Shown here piece by piece: positions 1,045-57,118 of a DNA stretch of 64,000 bases. The DNA comes from Escherichia virus TH40, in the sequence record MT446411.1; one strand, given 5' to 3'. The notes beneath the pieces are model-generated. The model ran no database searches, was not told where the DNA came from, and was given only the letters and a program-made list of their open reading frames with translations. Numbering within the stretch: position 1 is the stretch's first letter; each line of letters begins with the position of its first letter. The position numbers and the translations under genes were made by a program.

Positions 1045-2484
1045 TTAAAATTTCATTTGAGCAGCAAGGTCATCCAGGTCGCTCCTGTTGACCCTGGTTT
1101 GTCGATTCATTTCGGCCTGGCGATTCATCTCACCGGTGGCTTCTTTAACCGTAGGGCCTTGTTTAGGAGCCGAATCATCATCAACCTCATACCAGCGCTG
1201 ATTACCTTTCTTAACACCCATCTTGAATTTATTATAGTAGTTCTTATCACCATAACGAGACTTAAGCTGTTTGATTAACTGCAGCCCCATTTGAGCGAAT
1301 TCTTCGGTCTCAACAACACCCAACATAAAGTCAGCCGTGTGAGCAATACCAAAGGATTCTGCAATGTCAGCCATATCAATCTCAGCTGCAACGTTCGCGC
1401 CTCTGGTCGTCTGTGCCGCAGTCCACAGGACCACATTTTTCTCGACTGCCAGGCCACGAAGTTCTTCTGCAACCATCTTAATCAGACCGTAACTGTTTTC
1501 GGTAAACGTTTTCAGTCTTGAGCTTGCACAGATTGCCAGGTAGTCAACAATAATCACATCCGGCACAAACCCTTGCTTCAGTTTGTACTCGTTCAGTAAT
1601 GCACGGAAAGTATCCGCATGAGCACCACCAGTTGGATATTGTTTTATCTTCAGAGTCCCGAGAGTCCCGGAAGCACGCCATTTTTCCATCTTAGCTTTAT
1701 ATTCTGCCCATGATATATGACCTTCATCAATATCATCCAGAGATACATCCAGCAAGTTGGCATCAATACGTTTGGCACATACTTCTTCGGCCATTTCCAT
1801 GCTTATATAAAGAACATTATGACCAGTCTGAAGATAGTCAGCAGCTAACGAACAAAGTCCAAGGGATTTACCGACATTCGTCCCGGCCAGTAAAACGTTT
1901 TCTGTGCCATACTCAACTCCACCCTTCGTGATTTTATTCAGGATGTTAATGCGGAACGGAACCTTCTTCGATTTGTTCAGATAAGTCTGGAATCGAGCTT
2001 CGTAATCGTTTAACCAGTCATGGCCCAGGGCAGAGTCAAAACAGATAGACAATGCATCACGCATGATGTCAGGGATAGCACCGATATCCGGGATTCGTTT
2101 ATCACGTTTATCTTTAGGAAGTTCGGCATTACTCTGGATTTCGATAATCCGGGATGTGGCATTAAACATCGCAGACTTCTGTACATATTTCTCGGTTTCT
2201 TTAACCAACCATTCCTGGTCTTCTGGAGTATCAACCAGGGCTCCTAAGAGTTTCTTTGTGCCTTCATATTCGACTTCAGAAAGGTCAGAACCGTCGAGCG
2301 CGATATCAAGTGCAGTCTTAGTTGGAACTGCTTGATATTCTTTTACATGTTCGTTAATCGTATTAAAAAGGGTCTTCGCTGGACCCTTTTCAAAATATGT
2401 GCTATTCAGATATGGCCAGACTTTAACAAAATATTCCTTGTTAAAGAGTAGCTGGGATAAAATAGTTTCTACCACTTCCACCAC
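1045..2484 (-). CDS. 41: Replicative DnaB-family DNA helicase (T4 gp41-like)
   Basis: 479 aa; Walker A GTNVGKS; N-terminus and overall sequence match my recollection of T4 gp41; synteny uvsX-40-41. Confidence 0.93.
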   Translation of the reverse strand: MVEVVETILSQLLFNKEYFVKVWPYLNSTYFEKGPAKTLFNTINEHVKEYQAVPTKTALDIALDGSDLSEVEYEGTKKLLGALVDTPEDQEWLVKETEKYVQKSAMFNATSRIIEIQSNAELPKDKRDKRIPDIGAIPDIMRDALSICFDSALGHDWLNDYEARFQTYLNKSKKVPFRINILNKITKGGVEYGTENVLLAGTNVGKSLGLCSLAADYLQTGHNVLYISMEMAEEVCAKRIDANLLDVSLDDIDEGHISWAEYKAKMEKWRASGTLGTLKIKQYPTGGAHADTFRALLNEYKLKQGFVPDVIIVDYLAICASSRLKTFTENSYGLIKMVAEELRGLAVEKNVVLWTAAQTTRGANVAAEIDMADIAESFGIAHTADFMLGVVETEEFAQMGLQLIKQLKSRYGDKNYYNKFKMGVKKGNQRWYEVDDDSAPKQGPTVKEATGEMNRQAEMNRQTRVNRSDLDDLAAQMKF

Positions 2485-2813
2485 CTCTTTTTCATTTTAA
2501 TCTTATCAATTTCATCTTGTATTTGCATTGTAACACACTTTTCTACATGCACTGCAAGCTCCGCTTTGCGGTCTTCAGAAGGGGTGCCGAAATCAACTGA
2601 AACTTTTCCAGATGGTTCAATTTTAATTCCGGTTACGTACACAATGTGATTGGACCCATCAGGGAGTGATAACAGAATTTCCTGCCGTACAGTTCCCATG
2701 GATTGCCGGATAATCTCCAAACTTTTTTCGTAGTAAGGTACAGAAGGAGCCTTAGCTCCCTCCGCATCTTTCTCGAAATTATCTAAATCAGATAAATCGA
2801 TATCATTCATCAA
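2469..2813 (-). CDS. 40: gp40-like head vertex assembly protein
   Basis: 114 aa ORF between uvsX and 41, the position and size of T4 gene 40. Confidence 0.6.
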   Translation of the reverse strand: MMNDIDLSDLDNFEKDAEGAKAPSVPYYEKSLEIIRQSMGTVRQEILLSLPDGSNHIVYVTGIKIEPSGKVSVDFGTPSEDRKAELAVHVEKCVTMQIQDEIDKIKMKKRWWKW

Positions 2814-3981
2814 GGTCTTCCATCATATCTAAATCGTTTTCGATATCTGCCGCAGACGGTTTTGTCTTACCTTCAGGAGCAGAGTATTTTTCAACCTTGG
2901 AGGCAATAAGCGCATCAACTTCGGCGTCAACAACAGCATTGCTATCGATTGCACCCAGCTGGTAATGTCGTTTGATTGCATCACGGAAAGGTTCGTGCTT
3001 GAACAACGGACCCCAGAATTCGGTACAGTTAGTATCTTTTGCGCGCCATGATTTTTCTTCGCGGACCATTTCACCGGTCTCAACATCAAGATATTCACGG
3101 TTATACCAACCAACTTTCGGTTTCACCACAAATCCGATTTCCATTGCCATATCAAGCAGGCCAGAATACGGGTCAATACCACCATCGAATTTTACATCAA
3201 TGAAGAATTTACTTTTCTCTTTGACCATACGAGATTTTTCGGCGTTCAGAACAAATTGGAAACCTTCAAGTTCTTTACCGGTTTCTTTAATCTGGCGTTT
3301 GCCGATAATGAATACGGTGTCCGCAGAATACATAACACCTGTACCACCGGTCATAACGGTTTTGCTGTACATCTCAATCGTCTCGATTGTATGGTTAACC
3401 GCGACACAAGGAATATCCTTGATACTAAAATACGGGGTAACAATACGGAACAGAGATTTCAAGGATTTAGCACGAGTCATATCGCCAACGACTTTTTCGT
3501 TCATCGCATCTTCTGTTTCTTTTTTAGACGCCATGTTACCGATTGAGTCAATAAAGATAATGACTTTTTCACCGCGCTCAATTGCTTCAAGCTGGTTAAC
3601 CATATCAACTTTCAATTGTTCAACCGACTGGATTGGTGTATGGATAACACGCTCCGGGTCTACTTTCATTGCACGAAGATAAGCTTCGGTGATACCAAAT
3701 TCTGAATCATAGAACAAACAGATTGCGTCGGGGTATTTGTTCATATATGCAGAGACCATCGTTAAACCCATATTGGATTTAAAGTGTTTTGACGGACCAG
3801 CAAAAATAGTCAAACCTGACTGCATACCACCATCTAGTGCACCGCTGATTGCAATGTTCAGCATCGGGATTTTTGTACGAACTACATCTTTATCATTAAA
3901 AAACTTGGACTTAGTAAGAGTCGCAGTCATTTTGGATGTAGAAGCTTTAATCAAACGGGATTTCAAATCTGCAATAGACAT
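2803..3981 (-). CDS. uvsX: UvsX RecA-like recombinase
   Basis: 392 aa; RecA-fold ATP-binding loop GPSKHFKS; strong resemblance to T4 UvsX as recalled. Confidence 0.93.
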   Translation of the reverse strand: MSIADLKSRLIKASTSKMTATLTKSKFFNDKDVVRTKIPMLNIAISGALDGGMQSGLTIFAGPSKHFKSNMGLTMVSAYMNKYPDAICLFYDSEFGITEAYLRAMKVDPERVIHTPIQSVEQLKVDMVNQLEAIERGEKVIIFIDSIGNMASKKETEDAMNEKVVGDMTRAKSLKSLFRIVTPYFSIKDIPCVAVNHTIETIEMYSKTVMTGGTGVMYSADTVFIIGKRQIKETGKELEGFQFVLNAEKSRMVKEKSKFFIDVKFDGGIDPYSGLLDMAMEIGFVVKPKVGWYNREYLDVETGEMVREEKSWRAKDTNCTEFWGPLFKHEPFRDAIKRHYQLGAIDSNAVVDAEVDALIASKVEKYSAPEGKTKPSAADIENDLDMMEDLDE

Positions 3982-50360: not shown

Positions 50361-50393
50361 AAATTTCCTTAGTTATGGGTACGTTATATTTAT

Positions 50394-50421
50394 AAAAAAG
50401 CCCCAACCTTTCGGAAGGGGC
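50394..50421 (-). terminator. Rho-independent terminator (GC hairpin followed by U6 on minus-strand transcript)
   Basis: Forward aaaaaaGCCCCAACCTTTCGGAAGGGGC read directly; follows the 127-aa gene. Confidence 0.55.
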
Positions 50422-50459
50422 TATACCTTGTCGGGGTTCCACCTGCAAGGCAAGTGTTC

Positions 50460-50843
50460 TTATCCGCGGGCGAATGCCATTGCAGCGCGTTCGTTGGCAC
50501 GGTCAGTGATGTTCAAGAATTTATCACGAGCGATTTCGATTGGAGCGCCAACCCAGTCAGCGGCTCCATTACCTGGAGATTGTTTAGGACGAACCATATA
50601 AGTTGAAACTTTGGAACCAGCTAGTTTAGCACCAGGTGCAGCGGCATTCTTAACGTCTTTAGCTTTGATACCAAAACCAGTTACAATGCCCCAAGAAACA
50701 CCATTAACTGGTTTCTTGAACATAACACGGTCGCCAATTGAAACCCCAGCTTTTTCTGGAGCTACTAAAGAAAATTTACCGGCTTCAGTCAGTACGGATT
50801 CGGTGATGGTATTGCGATTTAAAAATTCTGCATATGTAAGCAT
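50460..50843 (-). CDS. Hypothetical protein (127 aa) with CTS-like N-terminus MLTYAEFLNR
   Basis: ORF track; N-terminus loosely resembles MKTYQEFI; GC-richer codon usage than neighbours. Confidence 0.45.
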   Translation of the reverse strand: MLTYAEFLNRNTITESVLTEAGKFSLVAPEKAGVSIGDRVMFKKPVNGVSWGIVTGFGIKAKDVKNAAAPGAKLAGSKVSTYMVRPKQSPGNGAADWVGAPIEIARDKFLNITDRANERAAMAFARG

Positions 50844-50899
50844 TTTGTTTTTCCATTATTAGGGTTGTTGTTAATATTTATATTCCATAGTACCGGATG

Positions 50900-50985
50900 C
50901 ACCACCCGCTCGGATTTCTCATACTACCGGGCGCACCGCCCGCTCTGGAAAAACTCCGTAAAAGGTGCGCCGTTTCAGCTGTGAT
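50900..50985. repeat. GC-rich non-coding stretch with a tandem direct repeat and an 8-bp inverted repeat
   Basis: accggatgcaccacccgctc / accgggcgcaccgcccgctc direct copies; ggcgcacc ... ggtgcgcc inverted; no ORF of 60 aa or more. Confidence 0.4.
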
Positions 50986-51084
50986 ATAAGGGGCCATTAA
51001 CAAAACATAAAGATTTATTAATGTCAGTCCTTAAACAGGGAACTTCAGTCCGACGACTTACCGGTAGCGACCCGGTTTCTTGTT

Positions 51085-51160
51085 TGGTCGAGACAGTAGG
51101 AATCGAACCTACGACCCAGGACTTAGAAGGTCCTTGCTCTTCCTTCTGAGCTATGCCTCG
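51085..51160 (-). tRNA. tRNA-Arg (anticodon UCU)
   Basis: Manual fold of reverse complement: 7-bp acceptor CGAGGCA/UGUCUCG, anticodon loop CUUCUAA, T-loop UUCGAUU, encoded CCA. Confidence 0.7.
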
Positions 51161-51293
51161 TGCTTGTTCATAGCGGGGTGGACTCGAACCACCAATATTA
51201 AGTCACTCATGCTCCAAGCATGCAGGGCACTTACCCCGGACGGAATCGAACCGCATCTACAATACCTATCGCCATGATAATTTAAAATAAGTT
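51161..51293 (-). ncRNA. tRNA-like structured RNA candidate (two T-arm-like hairpins, no canonical cloverleaf)
   Basis: GGUUCGAUUCC and GGUGGUUCGAGUCCACC T-arm-like elements between two tRNAs; could not be folded into a standard tRNA by hand. Confidence 0.3.
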
Positions 51294-51367
51294 TGGTGGC
51301 CCTGGGTGGAATCGAACCACCATCCAGCGATTATGAGTCGCTCGCTTGACCGTCCAGCTACAGGGCC
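51294..51367 (-). tRNA. tRNA with CAU anticodon (Met or lysidine-type Ile)
   Basis: Manual fold: acceptor GGCCCUG/CAGGGCC, anticodon stem-loop AGCGA-CUCAUAA-UCGCU, T-loop UUCGAUU, encoded CCA. Confidence 0.7.
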
Positions 51368-51445
51368 TTAATTCTATTATGAAAGGCTCTTTGAGGGAAG
51401 AACCTTTGGTAATAGAGGGTACTTATTAATAATAACGCGTTTTTA

Positions 51446-51922
51446 TTAAAGCATATCAAGTGCTTTAACGTTCAGGATTTGGATTTCTTCTTCGATGATG
51501 TATAATTTCACCCACGAAACTACGCGTATAAAATCACTATCATATTCCACTGGCTCGCCCAGCAATTCCTGGAGAGAACACAATAATTCAAATTCCTGGT
51601 CATTGTCACCTTCAACCAGATTTTCAATACAAAGTGTTTTGTTAATGAATTCAGGAGTTAATTGACCAGATTTTACACCAGATTCAATGTGTGCGATAAT
51701 CAAGTCTTTAACTATGTCCCATTCTGAATTACCACATTTATTGCGGTTATTACAATGAGAGCCTTGAAAAAGTTCCAGGATATATTTGTACTGCTGGATT
51801 TCTTGTTCTTCTACACCAAATATTGTCTGGGTTTTATAGTTGTCACCATCATTTTCCAAGGTTTCAATTTCAATCACATAACCTTTAGGGATGGTCTGAC
51901 CAAATTTAATATTCATAATCAA
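51446..51922 (-). CDS. Hypothetical acidic protein (158 aa)
   Basis: ORF track. Confidence 0.45.
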   Translation of the reverse strand: MIMNIKFGQTIPKGYVIEIETLENDGDNYKTQTIFGVEEQEIQQYKYILELFQGSHCNNRNKCGNSEWDIVKDLIIAHIESGVKSGQLTPEFINKTLCIENLVEGDNDQEFELLCSLQELLGEPVEYDSDFIRVVSWVKLYIIEEEIQILNVKALDML

Positions 51923-57106: not shown

Positions 57107-57118
57107 TATTTATAAATG
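57107..57118. promoter_or_regulatory. Overlapping divergent late-promoter boxes (minus TATAAATA for gene 4; plus TATAAATG for gene 53)
   Basis: Forward cttatttataaatgga; T4 late promoter consensus TATAAATA is established knowledge. Confidence 0.55.

What the first reader, a model, noticed from the sequence alone, without database searches (positions are those of the whole stretch)
50860..51370. Small tRNA cluster with a tRNA-like RNA candidate and a GC-rich repeat-bearing non-coding stretch
Two tRNAs fold cleanly by hand (Arg-UCU at 51085..51160 and a CAU-anticodon tRNA at 51294..51367). The 133 bp between them has two T-arm-like hairpins but no canonical cloverleaf. T4 encodes tRNA-like stable RNAs in its tRNA region, so this may be a homologue. 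The adjacent 50860-51085 region is GC-rich, ORF-free and has a tandem direct repeat plus an 8-bp inverted repeat.
Basis: seen in the sequence. Interest (0 to 1): 0.5.

Follow-up and report, generated by a model that had tools for sequence, protein, structure and literature searches.

The report
Conserved two-T-loop tRNA-like phage RNA
Between two ordinary tRNA genes of this T4-like phage lies an unannotated RNA gene of about 108 nt, with a tRNA-style closing stem and two T-loops, whose fold is kept by compensatory base changes in T4-like and N4-like phages; next to it lies the phage's copy of T4 'species 2' RNA, whose function is still unknown.

Summary
ARAGORN and Rfam confirm tRNA-Arg(UCU) at 51085-51160(-) and a CAU tRNA at 51294-51367(-); the CAU tRNA is probably tRNA-Ile2. 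Neither tool finds a tRNA in the 133-nt spacer.

The spacer is not junk. A 108-nt element (51169-51276, minus strand) recurs, always unannotated, in three T4-like genera (Dhaka-, Kanagawa- and Karamvirus) and in N4-like Gamaleya- and Kaypoctavirus phages. It was absent from 5,426 E. coli genomes. In 23 distinct copies, five helices are 98% paired, and 14 of 26 pairs show compensatory changes. The helices are a 7-bp acceptor-like stem, a T-loop hairpin, a variable hairpin, a UUGGN-loop hairpin and a T-arm. It matches no Rfam family and shows no detectable homology to T4 rnaC, with which it shares only short motifs.

The adjacent "GC-rich stretch" has two parts:
- 50964-51083 is the orthologue of T4 rnaD (species 2 RNA).
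- 50844-50963 holds two tandem 34-nt repeats, each with a covarying 6-bp GUG-triloop hairpin, plus a TATAAATA late-promoter motif. This is the 5' end of an orphan ORF cassette that sits where T4 carries rnaC.

The most likely function is a processed, stable tRNA mimic. That function is inferred, not shown.

The parts
51294..51367 (-). tRNA with CAU anticodon and encoded CCA. Called tRNA-Met by the tools, but probably tRNA-Ile2 (lysidine, reads AUA).
   Evidence: ARAGORN. Rfam tRNA 62.6 bits. The best matches in E. coli genomes are genes annotated tRNA-Ile, 80.5% identical over the full length. The KLB31 orthologue is annotated tRNA-Ile2.
51277..51293 (-). A/U-rich leader AACUUAUUUUAAAUUAU between the CAU tRNA and the element. 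It ends in AAUUAU, as does the stretch just before mature T4 rnaC.
   Evidence: Sequence. T4 rnaC boundary from the record annotation. N4-like copies have GAAUUA(A/U)G at this position.
51169..51276 (-). Two-T-loop tRNA-like RNA element, 108 nt, the main finding. Layout:
- P1, 7-bp acceptor-like stem: 51276-51270 with 51175-51169
- J1/2: 51269-51255, with invariant GG and GUAGAU
- P2: 51254-51251 with 51243-51240, loop UUCGAUU
- P3: 51237-51233 with 51228-51224
- P4: 51222-51218 with 51212-51208, loop UUGGA
- J4/5: 51207-51194, GACUUAAUA
- P5, T-arm: 51193-51189 with 51181-51177, loop UUCGAGU
- bulged C: 51176
   Evidence: Model R1 scores the window copy 112 bits, E=6e-30. In 23 distinct copies 98.2% of cells are paired and 14 of 26 pairs carry compensatory changes; with partners slid by 1-3 columns only 39-57% pair. 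RNAalifold finds the same five helices independently. Coordinates checked.
51161..51168 (-). 8-nt trailer AACAAGCA between the element and tRNA-Arg. No CCA is encoded.
   Evidence: Sequence.
51085..51160 (-). tRNA-Arg (UCU), with encoded CCA.
   Evidence: ARAGORN. Rfam tRNA 66.1 bits.
50964..51083 (-). Orthologue of T4 rnaD (species 2 stable RNA).
   Evidence: 84.7% identity to T4 rnaD over 118 nt, E=1e-30. Alignment with T4, JS98, SP18, VR5 and VR20. Present in 734 phage records. Consensus fold with a covarying central hairpin.
50920..50952 (-). Tandem repeat copy 1. Hairpin CGGGCG-GUG-CGCCCG: stem 50942-50937 with 50933-50928.
   Evidence: A G-C to A-U compensatory change in YenM_P8, EAWsc9 and TH54.
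50886..50918 (-). Tandem repeat copy 2. Hairpin CGGGUG-GUG-CAUCCG: stem 50908-50903 with 50899-50894.
   Evidence: It differs from copy 1 by a C-G to U-A change that keeps the stem. The other five aligned phages have a perfect CGGAUG/CAUCCG stem.
50875..50882 (-). TATAAATA, the T4 late-promoter consensus, 32 nt upstream of the ORF127 start codon.
   Evidence: Sequence. The motif occurs 6 times on the minus (coding) strand of the window and never on the plus strand. That TATAAATA is the late-promoter consensus is established T4 knowledge.
50460..50843 (-). ORF127, an orphan gene of the inserted cassette, in the slot where T4 and SP18 carry rnaC.
   Evidence: No Pfam or PHROG family. One near-identical cluster and three distant homologues. 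AF2 model pLDDT 70.6, small beta-barrel, no significant fold match. The same cassette is in 15 phage records.
50395..50458 (-). Conserved hairpin and terminator region that closes the tRNA/stable-RNA unit. It is homologous to the sequence 3' of T4 rnaC.
   Evidence: 80% identity to T4 over 76 nt, E=1e-15. Sequences.

Best explanation
The 133-nt spacer contains a real gene for a structured, tRNA-like small RNA of about 108 nt (51169-51276, minus strand).

Shown:
- A five-helix fold is conserved by covariation. A 7-bp acceptor-like stem (P1) lies next to a canonical T-arm (P5), separated by one bulged C; together they could stack into a tRNA-style acceptor/T minihelix. Where a tRNA has its D and anticodon arms there are three hairpins: P2, 4 bp with a second full T-loop UUCGAUU; P3, with a variable loop; and P4, with an invariant UUGGN loop.
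- Two junction strands carry invariant GG/GUAGAU and GACUUARUA.
- The element always lies on the same strand as the neighbouring tRNAs or genes.
- It is found in lytic T4-like and N4-like phages of enterobacteria, and not in the host genomes searched.

Inferred:
- It is co-transcribed with the tRNA cluster and excised by the host tRNA-processing enzymes (RNase P at the 5' side of P1, 3' trimming), as T4 tRNAs and T4 species 1 RNA are.
- Each of the two T-loops docks onto one of the two invariant GG dinucleotides (P4 loop and J1/2), as the D-loop G18-G19 does in tRNA. This would give a compact RNA with two tRNA-like elbows.
- The mature RNA acts in trans as a tRNA mimic. It is not decoded or aminoacylated. 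It binds or titrates a factor that recognises the tRNA acceptor/T/elbow region, most plausibly a host tRNA-targeting defence or tRNA-handling enzyme.

The rest of the flagged region is the rnaD orthologue, followed by the structured 5' end of an ORF cassette that replaced rnaC.
For: - Not a tRNA: ARAGORN and Rfam find nothing canonical in the spacer.
- Distribution: BLAST finds the element in 41 phage records. Hits are 94-98% identical in Dhaka-, Kanagawa- and Karamvirus and 71-79% in N4-like Gamaleyavirus. A second search adds Klebsiella Kaypoctavirus. Almost every hit lies under no annotated feature.
- Covariation: alignment A1 (19 sequences) is 97.8% paired, with 14 of 26 pairs changed on both sides; 0 of 500 shuffles reach this, and slid partners pair at only 40-60% with 0-3 such pairs. 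RNAalifold predicts the same helices independently. The 23-sequence alignment A5 is 98.2% paired. Compensatory changes also occur within clades: CkP1 and PEi20 against the window in P1, and CU10EC and L043 against G7C in P1, P3 and P5.
- Non-coding: indels of 1, 2 and 4 nt argue against a coding sequence.
- T-loops: both loops read U-U-C-R-A-N-U, the tRNA T-loop pattern.
- Strand and context: same strand as the tRNAs in the window, PEi20, KLB31, L011, VLCpiP4a and KP8, and as the flanking genes in G7C.
- Not in hosts: absent from 5,426 E. coli genomes. The only hit of the exact-pattern scan of GTDB representative genomes shows no resemblance beyond the pattern.
- Precedent: the annotated ends of T4 rnaC bracket a closing stem plus T-arm in the same way.
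Against: - No expression or processing data exist for this element in any phage.
- A single-sequence fold of the window copy is not more stable than shuffles (z = -1.2), so all support is comparative.
- The sequences fall into only three main clades. The number of independent compensatory events is therefore well below the cell counts.
- The window copy lacks the A between P3 and P4 that all 22 other copies have. It scores lowest among the T4-like copies and could be impaired, or the gap could be a sequencing error.
- The elbow contacts and the decoy function are inference only. No partner protein is indicated by gene neighbourhood.
- In Kanagawa- and Karamvirus the element lies 10-20 nt upstream of an ORF's ribosome-binding site, which fits a cis processing role equally well.
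Confidence: 0.72

Rival explanations
1. The element is a cis-acting processing module. It serves only as an RNase P / 3'-processing 'punctuation mark' that separates neighbouring tRNAs or frees the 5' end of a downstream mRNA, and the excised RNA has no function of its own.
For: - It always lies just 3' of a tRNA or within a tRNA-rich non-coding stretch.
- In PEi20, KLB31, CkP1 and L011 an ORF's ribosome-binding site and ATG follow within 10-20 nt.
- The P1 plus P5 minihelix is the minimal RNase P substrate (established knowledge).
Against: - The flanking tRNAs already supply processing sites.
- Invariance of the P2 T-loop, the P4 UUGG loop and both junction strands across phage families goes far beyond what a cleavage signal needs.
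- In Dhakavirus it lies between two tRNAs, and in G7C inside more than 1 kb of ORF-free sequence, with no mRNA to release.
Confidence: 0.15
2. The spacer is a decayed or rearranged tRNA: a pseudogene of the tRNA-Asn that JS98 and SP18 carry in this slot, or two fused tRNA fragments, with no present function.
For: - JS98, SP18 and many relatives have tRNA-Asn exactly between the CAU tRNA and tRNA-Arg.
- The two T-arm-like hairpins could be remains of two tRNAs.
- The window copy has a private 1-nt deletion.
Against: - 98% of pairs are kept, with 14 covarying pairs, across three T4-like genera and two N4-like genera.
- Copies are 94-98% identical in genera whose flanks are unrelated.
- Local alignment to 49 phage tRNAs matches only the T-arm, and tRNA-Asn does not stand out.
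Confidence: 0.04
3. The element is a divergent orthologue of T4 rnaC (species 1 RNA) that has moved from its usual place after rnaD to the slot between the two tRNAs. It would share rnaC's function, which is itself unknown.
For: - The window and VR5 lack rnaC at its usual place.
- Shared features: an AAUUAU leader, a 7-bp closing stem, ACUUAAUA plus 2 nt before a T-arm, and UAUUG..UAG on the 5' side, which in rnaC pairs with CUACUUAAUA.
Against: - BLAST at E<=1 does not link them.
- Model R1 gives only about 10 bits on the rnaC T-arm.
- Pairwise matches are 8-mers at most.
- rnaC has a different internal fold: one long hairpin plus a 10-bp hairpin, and no second T-loop.
- The analogous long-range helix in the element is only 78% paired, with no compensatory change.
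Confidence: 0.12
4. The element is an unusual decoding tRNA, or an aminoacylated tmRNA-like RNA, that takes part in translation.
For: It has an acceptor-like stem and a T-arm, and it lies in a tRNA cluster.
Against: - No hairpin has a conserved 7-nt anticodon loop. The P3 loop varies from about 4 to 10 nt in length and in sequence, and P4 closes to a 5-nt loop with a covarying closing pair.
- There is no D-arm.
- The 3' trailers have no conserved CCA or discriminator base.
- There is no G3-U70 pair (Ala identity).
- ARAGORN finds no tRNA or tmRNA, and Rfam tRNA/tmRNA matches are absent or fragmentary.
Confidence: 0.03

Closest known systems
Bacteriophage T4 rnaC (species 1 stable RNA, 139 nt)
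   Same: - Phage-encoded, non-decoding and tRNA-like.
- Lies in the tRNA / stable-RNA transcription unit.
- The mature ends bracket a closing stem stacked next to a canonical T-arm.
- Same AAUUAU leader, and same ACUUAAUA motif before the T-arm.
- Function unknown (PMC9697503).
   Different: - No statistically detectable sequence or profile similarity.
- rnaC has one T-loop and two long hairpins, where the element has two T-loops and three short hairpins.
- Different genomic slot.
- Not confined to T4-likes: the element also occurs in N4-like podoviruses.
Bacteriophage T4 rnaD (species 2 stable RNA, 119 nt)
   Same: Window 50964-51083 is its orthologue: 85% identical, in the same position directly 3' of tRNA-Arg, with the same 5' hairpin and the same GGCGCACC 3' end.
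   Different: Nothing notable for that stretch. The central hairpin sequence differs but stays paired. The spacer element is unrelated to rnaD.
Canonical tRNA (Rfam RF00005)
   Same: 7-bp acceptor-type stem, a 5-bp T-stem with a UUCRANU loop, and a location within a tRNA cluster.
   Different: - No D-arm and no anticodon arm with a 7-nt loop.
- 15-nt and 14-16-nt single-stranded junctions.
- An extra T-loop hairpin.
- One bulged nucleotide between the T-stem and the acceptor stem.
- No encoded CCA.
- Not detected by ARAGORN or by the Rfam tRNA model.
tRNA-like domains of tmRNA and of bacterial Y RNA (YrlA)
   Same: Acceptor or closing stem plus T-arm, with a reduced or stem-less D-loop analogue that supplies GG. 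These are non-decoding tRNA mimics made by the tRNA-processing machinery.
   Different: - No mRNA-like domain or tag reading frame.
- No Ro-binding helix.
- Rfam scores are far below threshold: tmRNA families 8-18 bits, YrlA 14.5 bits against a cut-off of 69.
- A second T-loop hairpin is present.
Double T-loop modules of T-box Stem I, RNase P and the ribosomal L1 stalk (PMC3664808, PMC4810234)
   Same: Two T-loop motifs in one small RNA domain. Those modules recognise the tRNA elbow.
   Different: In the known modules the two T-loops are 5-nt motifs interdigitated within one helical stack. Here they are complete 7-nt tRNA-type hairpin loops on separate helices. Whether they interdigitate, or instead each pair with a GG, cannot be tested with sequence tools.

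Membership tests
tRNA (RF00005) | Cloverleaf with a D-arm and an anticodon arm with a 7-nt loop, detectable by tRNA finders | tested here: not met
   ARAGORN finds only the two flanking tRNAs. Rfam tRNA gives no match in 51161-51293 even at E<=10. No hairpin has a conserved 7-nt loop.
tRNA (RF00005) | 7-bp acceptor stem adjacent to a 5-bp T-stem with a UUCRANU loop | tested here: met
   P1 and P5 are supported by covariation, 94% and 99% paired. One bulged C lies between them.
T4 rnaD (species 2 RNA), for window 50964-51083 | Significant sequence similarity to T4 rnaD over its full length | tested here: met
   84.7% identity over 118 nt, E=1e-30. Alignment. 581 phage records cover at least 80% of the query.
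T4 rnaD (species 2 RNA), for window 50964-51083 | Position immediately 3' of tRNA-Arg(UCU) on the same strand | tested here: met
   One nucleotide separates the tRNA-Arg CCA from the start of the homology, as in T4.
T4 rnaD (species 2 RNA), for window 50964-51083 | Accumulates as a stable small RNA during infection | not testable with these tools
   Shown for T4 only (PMC9697503, Northern blot).
T4 rnaC (species 1 RNA), for the spacer element | Significant sequence or profile similarity to rnaC | tested here: not met
   No BLAST hit at E<=1. R1 gives about 10 bits on the T-arm only. Only 8-mers at most are shared. No rnaC anywhere in the window.
T4 rnaC (species 1 RNA), for the spacer element | Position 3' of rnaD, before the conserved terminator region | tested here: not met
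   The element lies between the CAU tRNA and tRNA-Arg. The rnaC slot holds the ORF127 cassette.
T4 rnaC (species 1 RNA), for the spacer element | Closing stem plus T-arm preceded by ACUUAAUA, with an AAUUAU leader | tested here: met
   These are short motifs and do not prove homology.
tmRNA | tRNA-like domain plus a tag reading frame and pseudoknots, detectable by ARAGORN or Rfam | tested here: not met
   ARAGORN finds none. Rfam tmRNA-type matches score 8-18 bits, against cut-offs of 47-84, and cover only T-loops.
YrlA / bacterial Y RNA | Match to RF02553; a Ro-binding helix next to the tRNA-like module | tested here: not met
   14.5 bits against a cut-off of 69, and the match lies outside the element, at 51136-51195.
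New family: two-T-loop tRNA-like phage RNA | Five helices P1-P5 kept by compensatory changes; invariant UUCGAUU, UUGG, GUAGAU and GACUUARUA | tested here: met
   The window copy scores 112 bits with model R1.
New family: two-T-loop tRNA-like phage RNA | Sixth long-range helix between J1/2 and J4/5 (A5 columns 13-19 with 96-102) | tested here: inconclusive
   78% paired with no pair changed on both sides. The outer three pairs are compatible in 22 of 23 sequences, and the two middle pairs mostly break.

The most novel reading that the evidence does not exclude
The element founds an undescribed class of phage 'double-elbow' tRNA mimics. Each T-loop docks on a GG to form two tRNA-like elbows on one 108-nt RNA. 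The RNA was exchanged horizontally between myoviruses (Straboviridae) and podoviruses (Schitoviridae) of enterobacteria because it neutralises a host factor that recognises tRNA shape, for example a tRNA-cleaving anti-phage nuclease. If so, it may also hint at what the T4 species 1 RNA does, a question open for some 50 years, since the two share an ACUUAAUA/T-arm/closing-stem module.
Probability: 0.2. Interest if true: 0.8.

Novelty: new variant of a known kind. Interest (0 to 1): 0.58.

Why it matters
T4-type phages have long been known to make small stable tRNA-like RNAs (species 1 and 2), and their function is still unknown. This work adds a third family. It is supported by covariation, unannotated in every genome that carries it, and absent from Rfam. 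It is also shared at 71-79% identity between two unrelated, well-studied families of lytic phage, which points to horizontal spread and selection for a host-directed function. Its small size, clear fold and presence in culturable coliphages (VR5, G7C, KP8) make the question testable: delete it, pull it down, probe it. In practice, genome annotators should stop reading this locus as empty spacer. The neighbouring rnaD is also commonly missed, or over-called as a 'hypothetical protein'.

Tried and rejected
- Missed canonical tRNA or tmRNA in the spacer: rejected (ARAGORN, and Rfam at gathering and E<=10 thresholds).
- Decayed tRNA-Asn: no similarity beyond the T-arm, and tRNA-Asn does not stand out among 49 phage tRNAs.
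- Homology to T4 rnaC or rnaD: not detectable by BLAST, the covariance model or short-word BLAST.
- Host or prophage origin: the one hit of the exact-pattern scan of GTDB representative genomes shows no resemblance beyond the pattern, and there is no BLAST hit in 5,426 E. coli genomes. The metagenome scan returned only G7C-like copies plus chance hits.
- Conserved pseudoknot between the P3 loop and GACUUAAUA: the P3 loop is not conserved.
- Sixth helix between J1/2 and J4/5: inconclusive.
- The tandem-repeat hairpin as a dispersed regulatory motif: it occurs only in the ORF127 cassette; other IMG/VR hits lie in GC-rich sequence with no further similarity and look like chance matches.
- ORF127 function: no Pfam or PHROG hit, only three distant homologues, and a moderate AF2 model with no significant PDB match (best E = 0.07, small beta-barrel proteins). 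Nothing could be concluded about whether it binds the repeats.
- Literature searches for this element found nothing. The supplements of the large viral structured-RNA survey are not held, so overlap with its unnamed candidates cannot be excluded.
Full report
**Origin of the window.** The locus is 98% identical to Escherichia phages VR5, TH15 and TH22 (Straboviridae, Tevenvirinae, Dhakavirus). All genes here lie on the minus strand. The region is the counterpart of the T4 tRNA / stable-RNA region between trna.2-4 and e.8.

**Checking the observation.**
- ARAGORN finds exactly two tRNAs in the 64-kb window: tRNA-Arg(tct) at 51085-51160(-) and tRNA(cat) at 51294-51367(-).
- Rfam's tRNA model scores them 66.1 and 62.6 bits. 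Nothing else in the window reaches a gathering threshold.
- A permissive Rfam scan of 50700-51500 (E<=10) adds only fragmentary T-loop matches to tmRNA-type models, plus sub-threshold noise.
- The 133-nt spacer does contain two hairpins with tRNA T-loop sequences.
- The tandem repeat is real: two 26-nt copies, 34 nt apart, 85% identical, unique in the window, with 0 expected by chance.
- 50880-50999 is 53% G+C against 39% for the window.

The inverted repeats are 6 bp rather than 8 bp.

**The spacer is a conserved element.** Close relatives JS98, SP18 and many others carry tRNA-Asn in this slot. VR5, VR25, TH15, TH22 and the window carry the spacer element instead.

BLAST with the spacer alone gave 41 phage records:
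- The Dhakavirus copies are 98.5% identical.
- Klebsiella phage KLB31 and Edwardsiella phages PEi20/PEi26 (Kanagawavirus) and Citrobacter phage CkP1 (Karamvirus) are 94-97% identical, although their flanks are unrelated.
- About 30 N4-like podoviruses (Schitoviridae, Gamaleyavirus: G7C, pSb-1, EC1-UPM, PhAPEC5/7, St11Ph5 and others) are 74-80% identical over positions 34-124.

A second search seeded with the Klebsiella phage VLCpiP4a copy added the Kaypoctavirus group (KP8, VLCpiP4b, K60PH164C1, phi1_146050, PW7, JZBo1). Almost every hit lies under no annotated feature; the few exceptions are hypothetical-protein or pseudogene calls.

Pattern scans of IMG/VR and of metagenomes returned further copies of the same clades. 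The one hit of the pattern scan in 185,579 representative bacterial genomes shows no resemblance beyond the pattern. BLAST against 5,426 complete E. coli genomes found nothing.

The element is always on the same strand as the neighbouring tRNAs or genes:
- In PEi20, KLB31 and L011 it starts 4 nt after a tRNA's CCA.
- In the Kaypoctavirus genomes it follows a block of five tRNAs.
- In G7C it sits in about 1.2 kb of ORF-free sequence that ends in an annotated terminator.

**Structure.** An alignment of 19 distinct copies (A1) supports five helices:
- P1: a 7-bp closing stem.
- P2: 4 bp, with loop UUCGAUU.
- P3: 5-6 bp, with a loop that varies in length and sequence.
- P4: 5 bp, with loop UUGGN.
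- P5: 5 bp, with loop UUCGANU.
- One bulged C lies between P5 and P1.

On A1, 97.8% of cells are standard pairs and 14 of 26 pairs change on both sides. No shuffle out of 500 reaches these values. Sliding the 3' partners by 1-3 columns gives 40-60% pairing and 0-3 such pairs. RNAalifold, run without my structure, returns the same five helices.

A covariance model (R1) scores all family members at 101-140 bits, and the window copy at 112 bits. On the resulting 23-sequence alignment, pairing is 98.2%. That alignment is fitted to the model, so it leans towards it, but A1 was not fitted.

Compensatory changes occur within clades as well as between them. Examples are U-A / C-G / U-G at the third P1 pair among T4-like copies, and A-U to G-C and C-G to U-A in P1, and G-C to A-U in P3, among G7C-like copies. 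Indels of 1, 2 and 4 nt argue against a coding sequence.

Invariant single-stranded features are GG and GUAGAU in J1/2, GG in the P4 loop, and GACUUARUA in J4/5. A possible sixth helix between J1/2 and J4/5 is inconclusive: 78% paired, with no double change.

The window copy alone lacks the A between P3 and P4. On its own, the window sequence does not fold better than shuffles (z = -1.2), so all the evidence is comparative.

**What the element is not.**
- It is not a tRNA or tmRNA.
- It is not a decayed tRNA-Asn. Local alignment to 49 phage tRNAs matches only the T-arm, and tRNA-Asn does not stand out.
- It is not detectably rnaC or rnaD. R1 gives about 10 bits on the rnaC T-arm only, and BLAST links neither.

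It does share a design with T4 rnaC. The annotated rnaC ends bracket a CGAUUCG/CGUUUCG closing stem next to a T-arm. That T-arm is preceded by ACUUAAUA, and the mature RNA is preceded by AAUUAU. The window element has the same leader, the same motif and the same arrangement. I treat this as a shared module, and possibly distant kinship, not as membership.

**The adjacent 'GC-rich stretch'.** Window 50964-51083 is the orthologue of T4 rnaD (species 2 RNA). It is 84.7% identical, E=1e-30. It starts one nucleotide after the tRNA-Arg CCA, as in T4, and is present in 734 phage records. Its central hairpin differs in sequence between phage groups but stays paired. T4 RNAC and RNAD accumulate late in infection, and their functions are still unknown (PMC9697503).

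In T4 and SP18, rnaC follows rnaD. In JS98 and VR5, rnaD runs straight into the conserved hairpin-plus-terminator region. The window instead has about 505 bp inserted at that exact junction (50459-50963). The same cassette is found in VR20, MN01, TH54, YenM_P8 and others, 15 records in all at 94-97% identity.

The cassette contains, in order:
- The two tandem repeats.
- TATAAATA (the T4 late-promoter consensus) at 50875-50882. That motif occurs six times on the coding strand of the window and never on the other strand.
- ORF127 (50460-50843).

Each repeat holds a 6-bp stem with a GUG triloop. The stems differ between the two copies by a C-G to U-A change. Between phages, copy 1 differs by a G-C to A-U change. 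The hairpins are therefore under selection.

The repeat motif occurs nowhere else in the window or, apart from VR20, in IMG/VR. ORF127 is an orphan: no Pfam or PHROG family, three distant homologues, and a moderate AF2 model with no significant fold match. I cannot say what the hairpins do. They could mark the 3' boundary of rnaD processing, or they could be operators for a cassette protein.

**Mechanism.** What is shown is a conserved, covarying, non-coding fold with tRNA acceptor/T features, co-oriented with tRNAs, and restricted to lytic phages of enterobacteria from two unrelated families.

The following is inferred from what is known of T4 tRNA and stable-RNA maturation and of tRNA architecture (PMC4810234):
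- The element is transcribed within the tRNA precursor.
- RNase P cuts at the 5' edge of P1, and the 3' end is trimmed.
- The two T-loops each dock on one of the two invariant GG dinucleotides, giving two tRNA-like elbows.
- The stable product acts as a non-decoding tRNA mimic towards a protein that reads tRNA shape.

I put about 0.7 on 'processed, structured tRNA-like RNA gene', and much less (about 0.2-0.3) on the specific decoy function. The main rival is a purely cis-acting processing role. It fits the copies that lie just upstream of an ORF, but it does not explain the invariant internal loops.

**Novelty.** The general kind, phage tRNA-like stable RNAs of unknown function, has long been known from the T4 species 1 and 2 RNAs. 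This family, its two-T-loop architecture and its presence in both Straboviridae and Schitoviridae are not in Rfam 15. I did not find them in the literature available to me, but I could not check the unnamed candidates of the large viral structured-RNA survey.

Noticed in passing
window 51294-51367 (-): The CAU-anticodon tRNA that the tools call tRNA-Met best matches E. coli genes annotated tRNA-Ile (80.5% identical over the full length). The KLB31 orthologue is annotated tRNA-Ile2. It is probably the lysidine-modified tRNA that reads AUA, not a Met tRNA.
   Followed up: partly
window 50459-50963 (-): A cassette of about 505 bp (two hairpin repeats, TATAAATA, orphan ORF127) lies exactly where T4 and SP18 carry rnaC, between rnaD and the conserved terminator region. 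VR5 and JS98 have nothing there. The window thus combines a VR5-type spacer element with a VR20-type cassette.
   Followed up: yes
window 51223/51224 (-), between P3 and P4: The window copy of the tRNA-like element lacks an A that all 22 other distinct copies have. This could be a tolerated change, a defect or a sequencing error.
   Followed up: no
L012 1783-1928; also L017, L019 and L009 (IMG/VR contigs): An AT-rich, unannotated element of about 146 nt has a 7-bp closing stem (GCGGATA/TATCCGC) and ACTTAATATT followed by a T-arm. Its match to model R1 is weak (18 bits). It may be another phage tRNA-like RNA that shares the ACUUAAUA/T-arm module with T4 rnaC and the window element.
   Followed up: partly
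L005 (G7C) 1966-3190; L062 (KP8) 400-2210: N4-like phages carry the element inside more than 1 kb of ORF-free sequence. In G7C this stretch holds another T-arm-like hairpin. In KP8 it holds five annotated tRNAs, a further annotated 'tRNA-OTHER', and a sub-threshold tmRNA_permuted match (33 bits, L062 887-989). These may be a cluster of undescribed tRNA-like RNAs.
   Followed up: partly
window 50395-50458 (-): A hairpin (CACUUGCC-UUG-GCAGGUG) followed by a terminator stem is conserved with the region 3' of T4 rnaC (80% identity) in all relatives examined, whatever lies upstream. It is immediately followed by another TATAAATA at 50387-50394, upstream of the DUF7338 gene.
   Followed up: partly
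L003 1817-2056 (SP18); L047 872-1111 (VR20); L057 72-311 (MN01): Gaprivervirus relatives have an 80-aa ORF inserted between tRNA-Arg and rnaD, so rnaD does not have to abut the tRNA. In many records rnaD itself lies under a 'hypothetical protein' annotation.
   Followed up: no
window, whole: TATAAATA occurs six times on the minus strand (starting at 57114, 54667, 53373, 50882, 50394 and 35087) and never on the plus strand. This fits late promoters for a gene block that lies entirely on the minus strand.
   Followed up: no
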